The notes under the pieces were generated by a model that saw only the letters and a program-made list of their open reading frames with translations, was not told the DNA's origin and ran no database searches. From contig OZ241326.1 of the NCBI GenBank assembly GCA_965199855.1, forward strand, positions 800,001 to 864,000: DNA of 64,000 bases, read 5' to 3'. The translations under genes and the position numbers were made by a program. Position 1 is the stretch's first letter. Each line of letters begins with the position of its first letter. Source of the DNA: a bacterium (GTDB taxonomy: Bacteria > UBA8248). Below are positions 3,821-30,523 of this stretch, in pieces.

Positions 3821-4558
3821 TCATACTCGCTCTATCCAGTCCTCCTTGAAGCCGATCAGATTCAAAACGCGCTCGGGTTCCAATGGCTCAACGGGACGCT
3901 TGACGCGGAATTTGCGCGCCGACCCGGGAACGGGCTTGATAATCGTGAACTGGGCGCCGTGCGGCTGCCATGTGAATTGATGCTCGCGGCCGGATTTCTC
4001 GAATCCTTCCAGGTTTTTGCGCCTGTTGAGCTCCCAGTAATAATTGCTCGGGACGTATCTCGACGCTTCGGACTCGAACAGAACGAACTCCAGGCTGGCC
4101 ATGCTTCTAATCAGGACGGCGACGCGCAAATCATCGTATTCGGCGAATGACTGATTCACTCGACCATTCCAGATTCCGAGAACCGCCTCGCCGGTTTTTT
4201 CAACGTCCGAGAGAGGGTCCGTTATGCCGTAGGAATAAACGGGAGAGTTCCGGCCTGAAATGAGCCGGACGTTCAGCAACTCAAAAGGCTTTGGGGCCTG
4301 GACAGTTTTGACCGACCAGGAGCAGTTTCCCCAGACTACGTCGGTTACGCCAATGGGATTCTTGAGGTGATTTCCATCAATGGCGGCCGCGAATATATCT
4401 CCAAAGTCGTCTCCGCTGATGTTCGTCTGCCCTACCGCCAGCCTGTGGACAATCCGGCGGCCGATTTCAACGACGATCTCATCCGGAAACTCGCCGAGCG
4501 GATACGGGCCTCTACGCGCTCTTGACGCGCCTCTCAGCTTCGGACCCCTTGACGACAT
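3821..4558 (-). CDS. Probable type II restriction endonuclease (PD-(D/E)xK-like)
   Basis: Lies between a C5-MTase and vsr and overlaps the MTase 3' end; lower GC; D...SVK motif (VTDVVWGNCSWSVKT). Confidence 0.7.
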   Translation of the reverse strand: MSSRGPKLRGASRARRGPYPLGEFPDEIVVEIGRRIVHRLAVGQTNISGDDFGDIFAAAIDGNHLKNPIGVTDVVWGNCSWSVKTVQAPKPFELLNVRLISGRNSPVYSYGITDPLSDVEKTGEAVLGIWNGRVNQSFAEYDDLRVAVLIRSMASLEFVLFESEASRYVPSNYYWELNRRKNLEGFEKSGREHQFTWQPHGAQFTIIKPVPGSARKFRVKRPVEPLEPERVLNLIGFKEDWIERV

Positions 4559-27278: not shown

Positions 27279-27344
27279 GGGGGCGGCCAGTCGCCTGGCC
27301 ATTTTCCCGATCAGGGGCATCCAATCTTCATTAGGGCCGCCCGG

Positions 27345-27790
27345 AACCCGTAGGGGCGGTTCGGGAACCGCCCGTTGCGGACGATAACGGCGTTGATTCG
27401 GACAACCACAAGGGGTTGTCCCTACGAAATACCCCGCCGTCATTCCGGCGGAAGCCGGAATCCAGAACGGTCGCGTCATTCGAGAAAGACGGGCGGCCGC
27501 CCGATCATTCACCTGACCATCGGCGCAGGGTTTCGTAGGGGGCGCATATATGCGCCCCGAACGGATGAGCGCGCGGGCGCGGAGGCGAAGAATATCCACC
27601 GGATCGGTTGCGCGCGCGTGGCTTCGCAGGGGCGACCCGTCCGCAACCCGTAGGGGCGGTTCGGGAACCGCCCGTTGCGGACGATAACGGCGTTGATTCG
27701 GACAACCACAAGGGGTTGTCCCTACGGATGCGAAACCACCCAACCGTCGCCAGCCTACGCGCGGGGCGCATATATGCGCCCCCTACGAAC
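27345..27790. repeat. REP/BIME-like palindrome cluster, including an exact 82-bp direct repeat
   Basis: GTAG-type REPs (CGTAGGGGCGGTTCGGGAACCGCCC; CGTAGGGGGCGCATATATGCGCCCC) and a CGTC-type REP (CGTCATTCCGGCGGAAGCCGGAATCC); 27345-27426 is identical to 27645-27726. Confidence 0.85.
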
Positions 27791-27817
27791 CCAAAGACCC
27801 CGCCCCGTGAAACGCTC

Positions 27818-27971
27818 GACCCCCGACGCCTTTCGACGCCGGGGGTCTTCCTCGCCATGCCACGCCCCGCCCTGCCAAGCCTGGCCGAGCCATGCCTTGC
27901 CCTACCTTGCCGCGCCGTGCCCCGCCTGGCCAAACCTAGCCGTGCCCTGCCGGGCCACGCCTCGCCATGCC
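27818..27971 (-). ncRNA. GGY-NN pentamer array 2 (24 units) with 3' hairpin; putative guide RNA
   Basis: 27852-27971 holds 24 contiguous units (22 GGC-NN, 2 GGT-NN), then GGAAG and a 13-bp stem with a GAAA loop (27818-27847). Confidence 0.75.
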
Positions 27972-28010
27972 TCGAACTGTCAGTTTCTCACGCTTCGCGT
28001 CGTTTTCAAT

Positions 28011-28125
28011 GAGCGCGGGGGTAATATATTCGGGCCCCCGCTCCCCTTCCTCGCCAAGCCTCGCCTCGCCAAGCCTCGCCGAGCCCAGCCACGCCTTGCC
28101 ATGCCCAGCCGAGCCACGCCCCGCC
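28011..28125 (-). ncRNA. GGY-NN pentamer array 1 (15 units) with 3' hairpin; putative guide RNA
   Basis: 28051-28125 holds 15 contiguous GGC-NN units starting 3 nt after the stop of the RAMP-like gene, then GGAAG and a hairpin at 28011-28043. Confidence 0.75.
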
Positions 28126-28128
28126 CCG

Positions 28129-28728
28129 CTAATCCGTCAACGCCTCGATGCTCTCCGTCTCGAAGCGTCCATAGACGCCGGATTTCTCCGGCCGCCAGTC
28201 GCCCAGGCCGATGCGGCGGCCGGCGATGTCCAGCCACGCTTCCAGCTGGCTCTGATCGACGAGCTCGTCATCCGCCTCGACGACGAACGCCACCCCCCAT
28301 TCGTCGAATTTCGCCCGCGTTCGCAGGACGCGGCTGCGCTGGACGACGACGCCCGTCGTGAACTGCGCGGTCTTGGCGAGCGCCTCCGCCGTCGCTCCCA
28401 TGCTCCTGTCGTAGGAGAACTCCTCGACTTTCTCCACGAGCATCCCCTCGCGCACCTGCGGGCCCTGCTTCAGCTTTCGCGCGCCCGTTTCGATGGCCGC
28501 CCTGAGCATGCCTTCCGGGACGGTAGGCCCGCCGTCCGCGTCGAGATAGAGACTGGTGAGGCAGTCGAGCTCCCGGAGCCGGGCTTCGTCGGACTCCGTG
28601 CGGTTGCTCCCCCGCTTTCGCGCGATTTCCGCCTTCTCGACGTTGGCAGGGGATCGCGCGTCGAGTCCAGCCGCGCCGTTGTGCATGATGAGCGGTCTGA
28701 TGCCCCTGATTTTGATTCTGTATCGCAT
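28129..28728 (-). CDS. Stand-alone Cas7/RAMP-like RNA-binding protein (199 aa)
   Basis: GGGGAGAGG RBS; N-terminal strand YRIKIRGIRPLIMHN; PTVPEGMLRAAI; thumb-like VVVQRSRVLRTRAKF; C-terminal Gly-rich loop IGLGDWRPEKSGVYGRF. This is the motif order of Cas7-group RAMPs. The gene is hidden at the end of the 717-aa ORF in the track. Confidence 0.75.
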   Translation of the reverse strand: MRYRIKIRGIRPLIMHNGAAGLDARSPANVEKAEIARKRGSNRTESDEARLRELDCLTSLYLDADGGPTVPEGMLRAAIETGARKLKQGPQVREGMLVEKVEEFSYDRSMGATAEALAKTAQFTTGVVVQRSRVLRTRAKFDEWGVAFVVEADDELVDQSQLEAWLDIAGRRIGLGDWRPEKSGVYGRFETESIEALTD

Positions 28729-29129
28729 TTCCTCTCCCCTGAATGTTCGCCCGTCCGCCGCCGGGACGCCGGCAGAGGATCGGGCCTCAAGTCGGGCCGC
28801 CCCTCGGCGCGTGATGAGCGGCCCAGCATCCCCGGCGTCTCCGCCGTTTCCGACTGCGCCGCGGCTTCCCTGAACGCGGCCATGAATTGATGCGGGTCGC
28901 CGCCGTATTTCTCGATGTGGCGGCGCAAGGTGGTCGCCGCTTGATGGCATACCCCGCAAAGCGCGGTGAGATCGTTCGCCGTGAGCTCCCCCGGCTTCGG
29001 ATACCGCCATGCCCAATGATGCGCTTCCTCGGCGGGCCGTAGTCCGCAGAACTGGCACCTGCCCCCGCTTCGGGCGAAGGCTTCCGCCCGCGCCGCCTCG
29101 TAATTCGGCCCGTAGGTCGATTCCTTCAT
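28470..29129 (-). CDS. HNH endonuclease (Zn-binding) with low-complexity tail overlapping the RAMP gene
   Basis: GGGAGGG RBS; RSGGRCQFCG...EAHH...DLTALCGVCH (CxxC-HH-CxxCH). Confidence 0.8.
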   Translation of the reverse strand: MKESTYGPNYEAARAEAFARSGGRCQFCGLRPAEEAHHWAWRYPKPGELTANDLTALCGVCHQAATTLRRHIEKYGGDPHQFMAAFREAAAQSETAETPGMLGRSSRAEGRPDLRPDPLPASRRRTGEHSGERKCDTESKSGASDRSSCTTARLDSTRDPLPTSRRRKSRESGGATARSPTKPGSGSSTASPVSISTRTAGLPSRKACSGRPSKRARES

Positions 29130-29237
29130 GCGCCCTCCCGAATGAGAAAAACCGAAGATAGCATAAATCGCCCGGCGCGGTGATCCGCAGGGGCGGGGGC
29201 TCGCCCCGGCCATTTTCCCGATCATCGGCGGAAGGTT

Positions 29238-29380
29238 CCGTAGGGGCGGTTCGTGAACCGCCCGTTGCGGATGTCCACGGAAAAACGGGGCGTTCACGAA
29301 CGCCCCCTACGAAATCAATCGCCGACCTGCGGGCGGGTCGCATATATGCGTGGGACGCGCCTCTTGGCGCGTCACCTACG
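29238..29380. repeat. REP-like palindrome cluster
   Basis: CGTAGGGGCGGTTCGTGAACCGCCC, inverted partner GGGGCGTTCACGAACGCCCCCTACG, and a degenerate GCATATATGC copy. Confidence 0.8.
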
Positions 29381-29494
29381 GAAGCAAATATCCCGCCCCG
29401 TGACGGACGCCCCCGCCGCGCGTGGCGTCCCCGGGGCGGGGCTGGTAGAATCGGCGCGGAACCCTTGGATACCCCAACGCGGAAGGACGCGCCC

Positions 29495-30523
29495 ATGAAG
29501 GCCATGATCCTCAAGGAGTTCGGCCGTCCGCTCGCCCTGGAGGAGGCGCCCGAGCCGCGCATCGGCCCCCGCCAGGCATTGGTGGAATCGAAGGCGAACG
29601 GGCTGTGCGCGACGGATTTGAAGATCGTGGACGGCAGCGTCAGAACCGCCCCCACCCCCCTCATGCTCGGCCACGAGAACGCCGGCGTCGTGCTGGAGAC
29701 GGGCGCGGAGGTGGAATCCGTCGCGCCCGGGGATCGCGTGGTCGTCGTGAGCAAGCAGACCTGCGGGCGCTGCCGCATGTGCCGCGCGGGGAGCGAGGAG
29801 ATGTGCCTGAACTCGCCCGGACGCCTGGGGATAGAGCTGGACGGCGGCTTCGGGCAGCTTGTCGCCGCCTCGGAGCGCAGCCTCGTCAAAATCGGCGAGA
29901 ACGTCTCCCTGGAGGCGGCCTGCCTCATCGGCGGCACGCTCGGCTCCCCGCTCCACGCCATCCGCATGGCGCGGCCCGAGCTCGGCGAGTGCGCGGTCGT
30001 GTTCGGGGCGGGCGGCCTGGGGCTGCACGCCCTGCAGATCCTCCGGCACCTGGGGGCGAACGTGATCGCCGTGGACGTGAAGGAGGAGAAGCTGGCGAAG
30101 GCGCGCGAACTCGGCGCGTTCGAGGCGGTCAACGCCGCGCGAACCGACCCGGTGAAGGCGGTGATGGACATCACGGACGGCTTCGGGGCGGACGTCGCCC
30201 TCGAAATCGTGGGAGGCGCCGCCGTCCCGCCCGTCATCCAGCAGTGCCTGGATCTGCTGCGCCCCGGCGGGCGGCTCGTCATCCTGGGCTACGCCTTCGG
30301 CCAGAAAGTGGAGATCGACCCCGCGCAGCTGGTCTATAAATGGATTCAGGTGGTCGCCTCCCACAACCACACCGTCCGCGACGTGGCCGACGCGGCGAGC
30401 CTCGTGAACGACGGACGGGTGCGCGCCGTCATCACCGAGGAGGCGCCGATGCCGGAGGCGAACGCGGCGCTCGCCGCCCTTCGCGCGGGGGATCCCGTGG
30501 GCCGCATCGTCCTGACGTGGTAG
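29495..30523 (+). CDS. Zinc-binding alcohol dehydrogenase family
   Basis: GLCATD, LGHE, CGRCRMC...C, GAGGLG. Confidence 0.92.
   Translation: MKAMILKEFGRPLALEEAPEPRIGPRQALVESKANGLCATDLKIVDGSVRTAPTPLMLGHENAGVVLETGAEVESVAPGDRVVVVSKQTCGRCRMCRAGSEEMCLNSPGRLGIELDGGFGQLVAASERSLVKIGENVSLEAACLIGGTLGSPLHAIRMARPELGECAVVFGAGGLGLHALQILRHLGANVIAVDVKEEKLAKARELGAFEAVNAARTDPVKAVMDITDGFGADVALEIVGGAAVPPVIQQCLDLLRPGGRLVILGYAFGQKVEIDPAQLVYKWIQVVASHNHTVRDVADAASLVNDGRVRAVITEEAPMPEANAALAALRAGDPVGRIVLTW

What the first reader, a model, noticed from the sequence alone, without database searches (positions are those of the whole stretch)
27852..28125. The variable dinucleotides look like information, not microsatellite decay
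Seen (minus strand, 5'->3'). Array 1 NN: GG GT TC TG AT AA GT TG TC GA TT GA GA TT GA. Array 2 NN: AT GA GT CC AG AC TA TT CA GG AC GC AA AG AA AT TC CA TT AG GG GT AT GA. Across 39 units the GG is invariant, position 3 is only C (37) or T (2), and there are no indels. NN uses 14 of 16 dinucleotides (CG and CT absent) and is 32/78 (about 41%) G+C, far below the host. A slipped-strand repeat would show homogenised neighbours and mutations at all five positions. Inference: the NN strings encode two different targets, read either contiguously or with a gap (NN-x-NN-x, which would skip codon wobble positions).
Basis: partly seen in the sequence, partly recalled or inferred. Interest (0 to 1): 0.88.

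Follow-up and report, generated by a model that had tools for sequence, protein, structure and literature searches.

The report
VIPR guide-RNA arrays beside vipr gene

Summary
On the minus strand there are 15 and 24 in-register GGYNN units; GG is invariant, position 3 is C in 37 and T in 2, and 14 of 16 NN kinds occur.

The arrays start 3 nt after the stop codon of a 199-aa gene (28129-28728). That protein matches the solved SUSP1 Vipr protein (PDB 36pp, E 8e-17) and keeps its GGY-binding residues. It folds as a Cas7-like RAMP. An HNH-like accessory gene lies upstream.

This matches the VIPR system described in three 2026 preprints. There, Vipr polymerises on GGY/NN repeat RNAs and the NN bases pair with DNA, skipping one base per unit.

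- 75 of 80 homologous loci from several phyla carry such arrays next to the gene.
- A syntenic relative that lacks vipr keeps a homologous array: 9 of 26 NN bases changed, 0 of 26 GG bases.
- Three further 'solo' arrays lie elsewhere in this genome.
- I found no natural target, but the public-collection searches were low in sensitivity.

Verdict: a new member of a known kind.

The parts
28470..29129 (-). vap-like accessory gene. The ORF has 219 codons. The HNH-like core is about residues 1-100 (28830-29129). The ORF's 3' part overlaps vipr in another frame.
   Evidence: ATG at 29129 preceded by GGGAGG. Pfam HNH E 0.014, below the family cut-off. Invariant CxxC...HHW...D...CxxCH in 19 homologues. 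A profile hits the HNH domains of ZRANB3 (4.4e-5) and Cas5-HNH (8.2e-5). The AF2 model has pLDDT 87.8, and its best Foldseek hit is Cas5-HNH Cascade at 3.4e-4. A homologous ORF lies directly upstream of vipr in 58 of 80 loci.
28129..28728 (-). vipr gene, 199 aa: a RAMP (Cas7-like) protein that binds the GGY/NN repeat RNA
   Evidence: The RBS AGGGGAGAGGAA precedes the ATG, and GC3 phase supports this frame. phrog_4652 E 3.3e-36. PDB 36pp_D 'SUSP1 Vipr protein' E 7.9e-17; a profile gives 1e-17. H16, R138 and D177-W178-R179 align with the SUSP1 residues reported to hold G1/G2/Y3. AF2 pLDDT 88.6. Foldseek gives 34 PDB matches at E <= 0.001; the listed ones are CRISPR RAMPs.
28051..28125 (-). vrRNA-1 repeat tract: 15 GGCNN units, starting 3 nt after the vipr stop codon
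28011..28050 (-). vrRNA-1 3' tail: GGAAGGGG followed by a hairpin
   Evidence: The same tail follows the three solo arrays of this genome and two arrays of G001. It has a 7-bp stem, and 2 pairs keep pairing through changes on both sides in 6 sequences. The fold alone is not significant, z -0.58.
27852..27971 (-). vrRNA-2 repeat tract: 24 GGYNN units (22 GGC, 2 GGT)
   Evidence: It is homologous to the solo array at the syntenic site of G001.
27792..27851 (-). vrRNA-2 3' tail: GGAAG followed by a 13-bp hairpin at 27818-27847
   Evidence: Fold -33.5 kcal/mol, z -2.26; the G001 homologue gives z -4.75. The tail is conserved between G000 and G001 while the NN bases differ.
28754..28821 (-). Diverged partial duplicate of the vipr 5' coding region (28628-28695), lying just upstream of the vipr start
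   Evidence: Direct repeat D4, 68 nt, 74% identity. It is visible as PLITRRGAARLEARS versus PLIMHNGAAGLDARS.
27294..27810 (.). REP-like repeats and palindromes on the downstream side of the module
   Evidence: A 43-nt unit in 3 copies, a 90-nt unit in 2 copies and GGGGCGCATATATGCGCCCC-type palindromes have copies on both sides of the module. Pieces are also present at the vipr-less syntenic site of G001.
29174..29440 (.). REP-like repeats on the upstream side of the module
   Evidence: families D3, D5-D10, I1, I3

Best explanation
The region 27792-29129 (minus strand) is a chromosomal VIPR (Viral Interference Programmable Repeat) locus. It holds an HNH-like vap gene, the vipr gene and two vrRNA genes.

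Shown for the homologous SUSP1 system in print, inferred here:
- The arrays are transcribed.
- One Vipr protomer binds each pentamer. It buries G1, G2 and Y3 and presents N4 and N5.
- The filament pairs the NN dinucleotides with double-stranded DNA whose matching dinucleotides are separated by one skipped base (NN-x-NN-x).
- The 15 and 24 NN pairs are therefore two guide sequences, and each hairpin tail caps its guide.

Inferred from the preprint's statement about nuclease-bearing types: because the accessory protein is an HNH-type nuclease, this clade probably destroys its target rather than only repressing it, and serves the host or a resident element against phages or other mobile elements.

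The three further arrays in this genome share the vrRNA-1 tail but have no vipr next to them. They are solo vrRNAs that would load onto the single Vipr protein in trans.
For: Protein.
- Vipr homology: PDB 36pp_D E 7.9e-17 for the protein and 1e-17 for a profile.
- H16, R138 and D177/W178/R179 align with the residues that hold GGY in SUSP1 Vipr (preprint 10.64898/2026.04.26.720927 section 5).
- The fold is Cas7-like RAMP.

Anatomy.
- The arrays lie on the gene's strand, start 3 nt after its stop codon, and each is followed by GGAAG and a hairpin.

Conservation of the association.
- 75 of 80 homologous loci have at least one run of 6 or more GGNNN units. Their record titles name at least six phyla.
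- A stricter caller finds 184 arrays, 179 of them on the vipr strand.
- An HNH-like ORF lies upstream in 58 of 80 loci.

Information-like variation.
- At the syntenic site of G001 the flanks are 90-92% identical. Across 13 aligned units, GG changed at 0 of 26 positions, Y at 1 of 13 (C to T) and NN at 9 of 26, with one whole-unit indel.
- L031 and L034 differ at 4 of 32 NN positions and 0 of 48 GGY positions.
- Sponge-metagenome contigs show indels in multiples of five and replacement of whole arrays between conserved flanks.
- Neighbouring units are not homogenised.

Mechanism in print.
Against: - No target was found. The own genome gives no site above shuffled guides at skip 0, 1 or 2; under skip 1 the best scores are 20/30, 30/48, 20/30, 19/26 and 21/32, against shuffle maxima of 22, 31, 22, 20 and 22.
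- 142 guides scanned against 80 loci show no excess at skip 1: 6 real guides reach 0.8 against 7 shuffled.
- Four exact 9-unit seeds in IMG/VR gave 0, 0, 0 and 16 stretches. The 16 extend at 3-5 of 12 positions, which is chance level.
- Two 10-unit seeds in JGI metagenomes gave 0 and 1 stretch. The one hit lies on a 26% G+C contig and scores 21/30 overall.
- Full vrRNA-1 with up to 3 mismatches gave 0 hits in 61 genomes.
- Transcription, processing and Vipr binding were not observed here.
- Array 2 has 24 units, more than the 9-16 reported for the SUSP1 clade, so it may be two guides or only partly used.
- The vrRNA-1 tail fold is not significant alone (z -0.58).
- The Pfam HNH match is below the family cut-off.
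- NN composition is A+T-shifted. N4 is C in only 195 of 2122 units, which a pure 'copy of coding sequence' model does not explain.
Confidence: 0.9

Rival explanations
1. The arrays are pentanucleotide microsatellites made by replication slippage and decaying by point mutation. The position next to the gene is coincidental.
For: Period-5 tandem repeats do exist in the same genus: (GGCTC)n at four loci of G013, (GGTTC)n in G020 and (GGTGT)n in G015. Whole-unit indels occur between strains.
Against: Those true microsatellites are homogeneous and also match the reversed control pattern. The arrays of G000 and G001 are heterogeneous and give 0 control hits. GG is invariant in 39 of 39 units while NN uses 14 of 16 kinds. 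Adjacent identical NN is not enriched, 151 against 170.7 +/- 10.5. The arrays accompany the vipr gene in 75 of 80 loci from different phyla. Between G000 and G001, changes fall on NN at 9 of 26 positions and on GG at 0 of 26.
Confidence: 0.01
2. The arrays are bound by the protein but carry no address. They would act as an RNA sponge, an assembly scaffold or a G-rich (two-tetrad G-quadruplex) structural element, in which NN is simply unconstrained. TRAP or CsrA binding sites with free spacers would be the analogy.
For: No target was found at any skip length. The form (GG N3)n could in principle form G-quadruplexes (inference). N4 is depleted of C, which suggests constraints other than target copying.
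Against: For the homologous SUSP1 and P. fulva systems, NN reprogramming redirects repression and phage defence, and cryo-EM shows NN paired with DNA (preprint sections read). The GGY-binding residues are conserved here. Unconstrained spacers would drift at about the rate of neutral flanks, yet NN differs at 35% where flanking genes differ by 8-10%. Whole arrays are also swapped between strains.
Confidence: 0.05
3. The locus is a VIPR relic. The guides once had targets, but the system is no longer expressed or functional in this host.
For: vipr was found in only 1 of 23 genomes of the genus. The syntenic site of G001 has lost, or never had, vap, vipr and array 1. A diverged partial duplicate of the vipr 5' end lies upstream. 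No targets were found.
Against: vipr and vap are intact ORFs with ribosome-binding sites. Vipr is 55-77% identical to homologues across phyla and every functional residue checked is kept. All 39 units keep GGY. Near-identical loci with different arrays occur in several metagenomes, which points to ongoing turnover.
Confidence: 0.04

Closest known systems
VIPR system of Escherichia phage SUSP1 ('type II' in bioRxiv 10.64898/2026.04.26.720920; structure PDB 36pp)
   Same: Both have a Vipr protein of about 200 aa. The window protein matches at E 8e-17 and aligns with about 30% identical residues; that share is my estimate from the alignment, not a tool figure. H/R/DWR are kept at the GGY-binding positions. 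Both have GGY/NN pentamer arrays on the same strand next to the gene, each capped by a conserved structured 3' tail. Several vrRNAs occur per locus, and solo vrRNAs exist elsewhere.
   Different: The window locus is chromosomal, lies between metabolic genes and is not in a recognisable phage. Its accessory gene is upstream, overlaps vipr and is HNH-like, whereas the preprint describes the type II vap as a predicted DNA-binding protein. The tails are simple hairpins of different sequence; the SUSP1 tail is described as a pseudoknot. Array 2 has 24 units against the reported 9-16.
Nuclease-associated VIPR types (types III-V of the same preprint; an HNH domain is named in its Fig. S21 legend)
   Same: Both have a vap with a nuclease fold. 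The loci sit in cellular chromosomes, and vrRNAs follow the gene.
   Different: I could not assign a type. The preprint says types III and V lie in defence islands; this locus lies between a short-chain dehydrogenase and an alcohol dehydrogenase gene. PADLOC gives no hit for the Vipr protein; neighbouring genes were not scanned for defence systems.
Class 1 CRISPR effector backbones (Cas7/Csm3/Cmr4; Cas5-HNH type I-E Cascade)
   Same: The Vipr model's best structural matches are Cas7-family subunits of type III and type VII complexes. The vap model's best match is the HNH domain fused to Cas5 in type I-E HNH Cascade. Both systems use periodic thumb-mediated base flipping along a guide, as stated in the preprints.
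   Different: There is no CRISPR array, no cas1/cas2 and no spacer-repeat structure. The period is 5 nt, with 3 bases buried and 2 presented, instead of 6 nt with 1 flipped. The guide is noncontiguous.
Solo (orphan) vrRNAs of phage satellites and vipr-less phages (bioRxiv 10.64898/2026.10.15.759431)
   Same: Arrays B, C and D of this genome and the arrays of G001 have GGYNN tracts and the clade's tail but no adjacent vipr.
   Different: Here they sit on 1.5-3 kb low-G+C islets that encode small secreted-looking and ribbon-helix-helix-like ORFs, inside a bacterial chromosome that itself carries vipr. They share a conserved leader of about 125 nt, whose function is unknown. No REP-type decoy target was detected in the own genome.

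Membership tests
VIPR system | Vipr protein: a single-RRM RAMP with G-loop and thumb, homologous to characterised Vipr | tested here: met
   phmmer against PDB gives 36pp_D 'SUSP1 Vipr protein' at E 7.9e-17 over residues 4-192; a profile gives E 1e-17. The AF2 model has pLDDT 88.6. Foldseek gives 34 PDB matches at E <= 0.001; the top ones are Cas7-type RAMPs. The G-loop GLGDWRPEKSGVYGRF is present.
VIPR system | Residues that recognise G1, G2 and Y3 (SUSP1 H17, R138, D177, W178, R179) | tested here: met
   In the alignment, window H16, R138, D177, W178 and R179 stand opposite them. R138, D177, W178 and R179 are invariant in 16 clade members, and H16 is kept in at least 90% of them. The SUSP1 K33 column reads A33 here, with invariant K32 next to it.
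VIPR system | Tandem GGY/NN pentamer tracts (at least 4 units) flanking vipr on its strand | tested here: met
   15 and 24 units follow directly 3' of the gene. 75 of 80 homologous loci have such tracts, and 179 of 184 called arrays lie on the gene's strand.
VIPR system | Conserved, structured 3' tail after each repeat tract | tested here: met
   The tail of vrRNA-1 is shared by 6 arrays of two genomes; it has a 7-bp stem with 2 compensated pairs. The vrRNA-2 tail is a 13-bp hairpin conserved in G001. A pseudoknot, as in SUSP1, was not tested.
VIPR system | NN hypervariable between relatives while GGY is kept | tested here: met
   G000 against G001: NN 9/26, Y 1/13, GG 0/26. L031 against L034: NN 4/32, GGY 0/48. 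In 2122 units all 16 NN kinds occur.
VIPR system | Accessory vap gene in the operon | tested here: met
   An HNH-like ORF lies directly upstream and is conserved in 58 of 80 loci.
VIPR system | vrRNAs are expressed as roughly 100-nt RNAs and co-purify with Vipr | not testable with these tools
   No listed sequencing run that holds the stretch is on record as RNA.
VIPR system | Natural targets that match the NN string under the 1-nt skip rule (at least 80% NN match) | tested here: inconclusive
   Nothing above background in the own genome, 80 loci, 61 genomes at up to 3 mismatches, IMG/VR exact 9-unit seeds or JGI metagenomes with exact 10-unit seeds. The collection scans accept exact matches only, so an 80-90% match would be missed.
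Slipped-strand pentanucleotide microsatellite | Neighbouring units homogeneous; mutations at all positions of the unit | tested here: not met
   (see observation check)
CRISPR array | Direct repeats of 20-50 nt separated by unique spacers; cas genes nearby | tested here: not met
   The repeat period is 5 nt. Rfam reports only two tRNAs in the window. No neighbouring protein that was scanned matches a Cas family in Pfam.

The most novel reading that the evidence does not exclude
This HNH-bearing VIPR clade is a cellular module that moves across phyla. Its proteins are 55-77% identical in genomes whose record titles name Chloroflexota, Alpha- and Gammaproteobacteria, Binatia, Acidobacteriota, Actinomycetota and Thermodesulfobacteriota. 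Many of these are sponge-associated MAGs, and only 6 relatives were found in IMG/VR.

Within one cell its single Vipr would be shared by guides from several independent loci. These are the operon's own two vrRNAs plus three solo vrRNAs, each with a conserved leader of about 125 nt, carried on tiny low-G+C islets. That would make the islets a new kind of minimal mobile element, or a distributed host guide store, that 'hires' a chromosomal VIPR. It would extend the phage and satellite picture in print to conflicts inside bacterial chromosomes of a symbiont community.
Probability: 0.3. Interest if true: 0.6.

Novelty: new member of a known kind. Interest (0 to 1): 0.42.

Why it matters
That is the mechanism published in 2026 for VIPR systems, so the finding is real but no longer new.

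What this locus adds is a well-delimited chromosomal example of the little-studied nuclease-associated branch.
- It has an intact HNH-vap/vipr operon and two guides, plus three solo guides elsewhere in a complete genome.
- A natural vipr-less comparator exists at the same chromosomal site in a sister genome.
- About 180 arrays from homologous loci in very different bacteria could be mined for targets.
- The HNH domain's closest solved relative is the Cas5-HNH fusion of type I-E Cascade, which bears on the proposed VIPR-to-CRISPR link.

Tried and rejected
1. The 717-aa ORF (28129-30282) as the gene next to the arrays. Rejected: GC3 phase shows only its last 199 codons are coding, and a + strand alcohol dehydrogenase gene occupies the rest.

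2. My first idea was a TRAP-like ring-protein binding site or an iteron or centromere. It was dropped once the PDB match to Vipr appeared.

3. Rfam: no family matches the arrays, tails or solo leaders. In particular there is no hammerhead between arrays.

4. Pfam and PADLOC on the 199-aa protein: no hit. NCBIfam gave only a chance-level hit.

5. Target searches:
- own genome at skip 0-3 against 15 shuffles per guide;
- 142 guides against 80 loci;
- IMG/VR exact seeds;
- JGI metagenomes.
All were at background. The collection scans take exact matches only, so sensitivity is low. The solo guides B, C and D were scanned only against the own genome and the 80 loci.

6. RNA evidence: no RNA holder is listed for the stretch, so expression is untested.

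7. Read laying on four DNA contig sets showed array indels and replacement. One contig (X10) aligns to array 1 with 5 gaps and with differences at G1, G2 and Y3 positions. I take this as misalignment of a different array, not as GGY mutation. The table is cut (81 differences are not shown), so I do not use it for counts.

8. Functional overlap of vap with vipr: the test on synonymous sites was weak, 0.50 in codons 1-80 against 0.44 in codons 81-199.

9. Pfam on the islet ORFs: nothing above the family cut-offs.

11. The supplements of the preprints (type tables, locus lists, target data) are closed. I therefore cannot say whether this clade or this genome is among the 664 representative loci, or which type it is.

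Full report
**Observation**

On the minus strand the window holds two in-register pentamer tracts. One has 15 GGCNN units at 28125-28051. The other has 24 GGYNN units at 27971-27852, of which 22 are GGC and 2 are GGT. Each is followed by GGAAG.

G is found at positions 1 and 2 in 39 of 39 units. Position 3 is C in 37 and T in 2. Fourteen of 16 dinucleotides are used, and CG and CT are missing. NN G+C is 0.410, against 0.67 for the window.

This is far from chance:
- In the complete 3.04-Mb genome, GG[CT]NN runs have either 4 units (34 runs) or 13-24 units (5 arrays), with nothing in between.
- A six-unit pattern hits 46 times, against 0 for its reversed control.

**What lies around it**

The 717-aa ORF that ends at the arrays is an artefact of high G+C. 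Codon-position G+C shows that only its last 199 codons (28129-28728, minus strand) are coding, and they are preceded by a good ribosome-binding site. A + strand alcohol dehydrogenase gene occupies the rest.

The 199-aa protein has no Pfam or PADLOC match and belongs to phrog_4652, a family of unknown function.
- Against PDB sequences it matches one entry, 36pp, 'SUSP1 Vipr protein', at E 7.9e-17; a profile of 16 homologues gives 1e-17.
- Its AF2 model (pLDDT 88.6) resembles the Cas7-type RAMP subunits of type III and type VII CRISPR complexes.

Directly upstream, and overlapping the vipr start in another frame, is an ORF beginning at 29129.
- Its first ~100 residues carry CxxC...HHW...D...CxxCH, invariant in 19 homologues.
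- Pfam HNH scores below its cut-off, at E 0.014.
- A profile finds the HNH domains of ZRANB3 and of Cas5-HNH Cascade.
- The model (pLDDT 87.8) is closest to Cas5-HNH, T4 endonuclease VII, IscB and a phage HNH endonuclease.

**Identification**

A paper search for the PDB name led to three 2026 preprints on VIPR systems.

I read the Results and Methods sections 18, 20, 26 and 27 of 10.64898/2026.04.26.720920 (plus passages). I read sections 5 and 6 of 10.64898/2026.04.26.720927. I read sections 7, 8 and 17 of 10.64898/2026.10.15.759431.

They describe the following:
- a Vipr protein, which is an early-branching RAMP;
- an accessory vap gene;
- vrRNAs made of 9-16 GGY/NN pentamers followed by a conserved structured tail.

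One Vipr protomer binds each repeat and buries G1, G2 and Y3. The NN bases pair with DNA in which one base is skipped per unit, the '1 nt skip rule', often at the codon wobble position.

The residues reported to hold GGY in SUSP1 Vipr are H17, R138, D177, W178 and R179. They align with H16, R138, D177, W178 and R179 of the window protein. R138, D177, W178 and R179 are invariant in 16 members of the window's clade, and H16 is kept in at least 90% of them. The window therefore holds a vap(HNH)-vipr-vrRNA1-vrRNA2 locus.

**Tests of the association and of 'information'**

(a) Gene-array linkage. A scan of one genome per species found 110 relatives among 121 candidate stretches, and the best 80 were kept. 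They are 55-77% identical to the window protein. Their record titles span Dehalococcoidia and other Chloroflexota, Alpha- and Gammaproteobacteria, Binatia, Vicinamibacterales, Acidimicrobiia and Thermodesulfobacteriota, and many names point to sponge MAGs.
- 75 of 80 loci carry at least one run of 6 or more GGNNN units, mostly starting within about 100 nt after the gene. L029, L040, L077, L079 and L084 have none.
- A stricter caller finds 184 arrays, 179 on the gene's strand.
- The HNH-like ORF lies upstream in 58 of 80 loci.

(b) Turnover. vipr was found in 1 of 23 genomes of the genus.
- The sister genome G001 is 99% complete and has no phrog_4652 match.
- It has the same flanking genes at 90-92% identity, but only a 13-unit array homologous to the 3' part of array 2, with the same tail.
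- In 13 aligned units, GG changed at 0 of 26 positions, Y at 1 of 13 (C to T) and NN at 9 of 26. One whole unit is missing.
- Loci L031 and L034 differ at 4 of 32 NN positions and 0 of 48 GGY positions.
- Contigs from sponge and marine metagenomes carry the locus with a 15-nt insertion, a 47-to-7-nt change, or 264 nt (both arrays) replaced by 74 other letters between conserved flanks. That table is cut, so I use it only qualitatively.

(c) No homogenisation. Adjacent identical NN occurs 151 times in 2181 pairs, against 170.7 +/- 10.5 after shuffling. Real pentamer microsatellites in G013, G015 and G020 look quite different.

(d) Tails.
- The vrRNA-1 tail recurs after five other arrays. It has a 7-bp stem in which two pairs are kept through double changes.
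- The vrRNA-2 tail is a 13-bp hairpin conserved in G001.

**Targets**

No target was found.
- In the own genome, no site exceeds shuffled guides at skip 0, 1 or 2. Skip 3 finds only the arrays themselves. The preprint likewise reports no self-targets.
- 142 guides against the 80 loci show no excess.
- Exact 9-unit seeds (18 fixed bases) from both arrays gave 0, 0, 0 and 16 IMG/VR stretches. Thirteen of the 16 are one redundant sequence, and all extend at chance level, 3-5 of 12.
- Full vrRNA-1 with up to 3 mismatches gave 0 hits in 61 genomes.
- Two 10-unit seeds in JGI metagenomes gave 0 and 1 hit. The one hit is on a 26% G+C contig and scores 21/30 overall.
- These scans cannot see 80-90% matches, so the result is inconclusive rather than negative.

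**Other arrays in the genome**

Arrays B (672387-672461, minus), C (1022850-1022914) and D (1193134-1193213) have 15, 13 and 16 units. They carry the vrRNA-1-type tail followed by a terminator-like hairpin, and a shared leader of about 125 nt, but no vipr.

They lie in low-G+C islets with small ORFs, and none of these ORFs has a Pfam match above the family cut-offs. They fit the 'solo vrRNA' concept of the third preprint, here within a vipr-positive chromosome.

**Verdict**

The kind of system is already in print (April-October 2026), so this is a new member, probably of the nuclease-associated branch. I could not assign a type because the supplements are closed. Neither 'sponge' nor 'Chloroflex' occurs in the main text of the discovery preprint.

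Noticed in passing
G000:C1 672387-672461 (-), 1022850-1022914 (+), 1193134-1193213 (+) = L012 8388-8462, L013 8351-8415, L014 8135-8214: Three solo vrRNA-like arrays of 15, 13 and 16 units. They have the same tail as vrRNA-1 and a shared leader of about 125 nt that can fold into a multi-stem structure. Only 3 sequences are available, so there is no real covariation. The leader's function is unknown: promoter, processing site or ribozyme. Rfam finds nothing there.
   Followed up: partly
L012 7790-10227 (G000:C1 about 671790-674227): The islet with array B has 47-65% G+C against a 67% genome. It encodes 53-, 79- and 89-aa ORFs. It appears to sit between two pieces of one gene. The upstream 167-aa piece matches DUF429 weakly (E 3.8e-4, below the cut-off), and a 61-aa ORF downstream could be its C-terminus. 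This suggests insertion of a small mobile element. Homologous small ORFs recur at array C.
   Followed up: partly
window 28628-28695 and 28754-28821: A 68-nt direct repeat at 74% identity. A diverged copy of vipr codons about 12-34 sits just upstream of the vipr start, inside the 3' part of the vap ORF. It is probably a scar of a 126-nt duplication.
   Followed up: no
window 28470-28728; L025-L104 about 4001-4259: The vap ORF runs 259 nt into vipr in another frame. In most homologous loci the corresponding ORF also stays open for about 235-259 nt into vipr. Synonymous sites of vipr are only slightly more conserved in codons 1-80 (0.50) than in codons 81-199 (0.44), so a functional overlap is not shown.
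   Followed up: partly
window 27294-27810 and 29174-29440: REP-like repeats (a 43-nt unit in 3 copies, a 90-nt unit in 2 copies, GGGGCGCATATATGCGCCCC-type palindromes) flank the VIPR module on both sides. Pieces also occur at the vipr-less syntenic site of G001. They could have mediated gain or loss of the module.
   Followed up: no
184 arrays in L025-L104 (2122 units): N4 is C in only 195 of 2122 units (9%). CG is the rarest NN (18 units) and AT the commonest (320). NN G+C is 0.40, although the loci are 51-74% G+C. The last unit before the tail is GGCAG, GGCAA or GGCGA in 111 of 184 arrays. Whether this reflects target composition or a constraint of the Vipr filament is open.
   Followed up: no
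vap model ma62256d7405f (window 28830-29129): The closest solved relative of the vap HNH domain, by sequence profile and by fold, is the HNH domain fused to Cas5 in type I-E HNH Cascade (8yb6, 8zlu). This is of interest for the proposed evolutionary link between VIPR and CRISPR.
   Followed up: partly
G013:C4 12806-, 46714-, 197815-, 3507067-; G020:C1 1541281-; G015:C53/C64: True pentanucleotide microsatellites, (GGCTC)n, (GGTTC)n and (GGTGT)n, occur in three genomes of the same genus. They served here as a natural contrast to the vrRNA arrays.
   Followed up: no
L121 (IMGVR_UViG_3300009884_000001, end of a 42.9-kb viral contig): Only 6 relatives of this Vipr clade were found in IMG/VR, the best at 58% identity, against 110 in cellular genomes. 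The clade seems mainly chromosomal.
   Followed up: no
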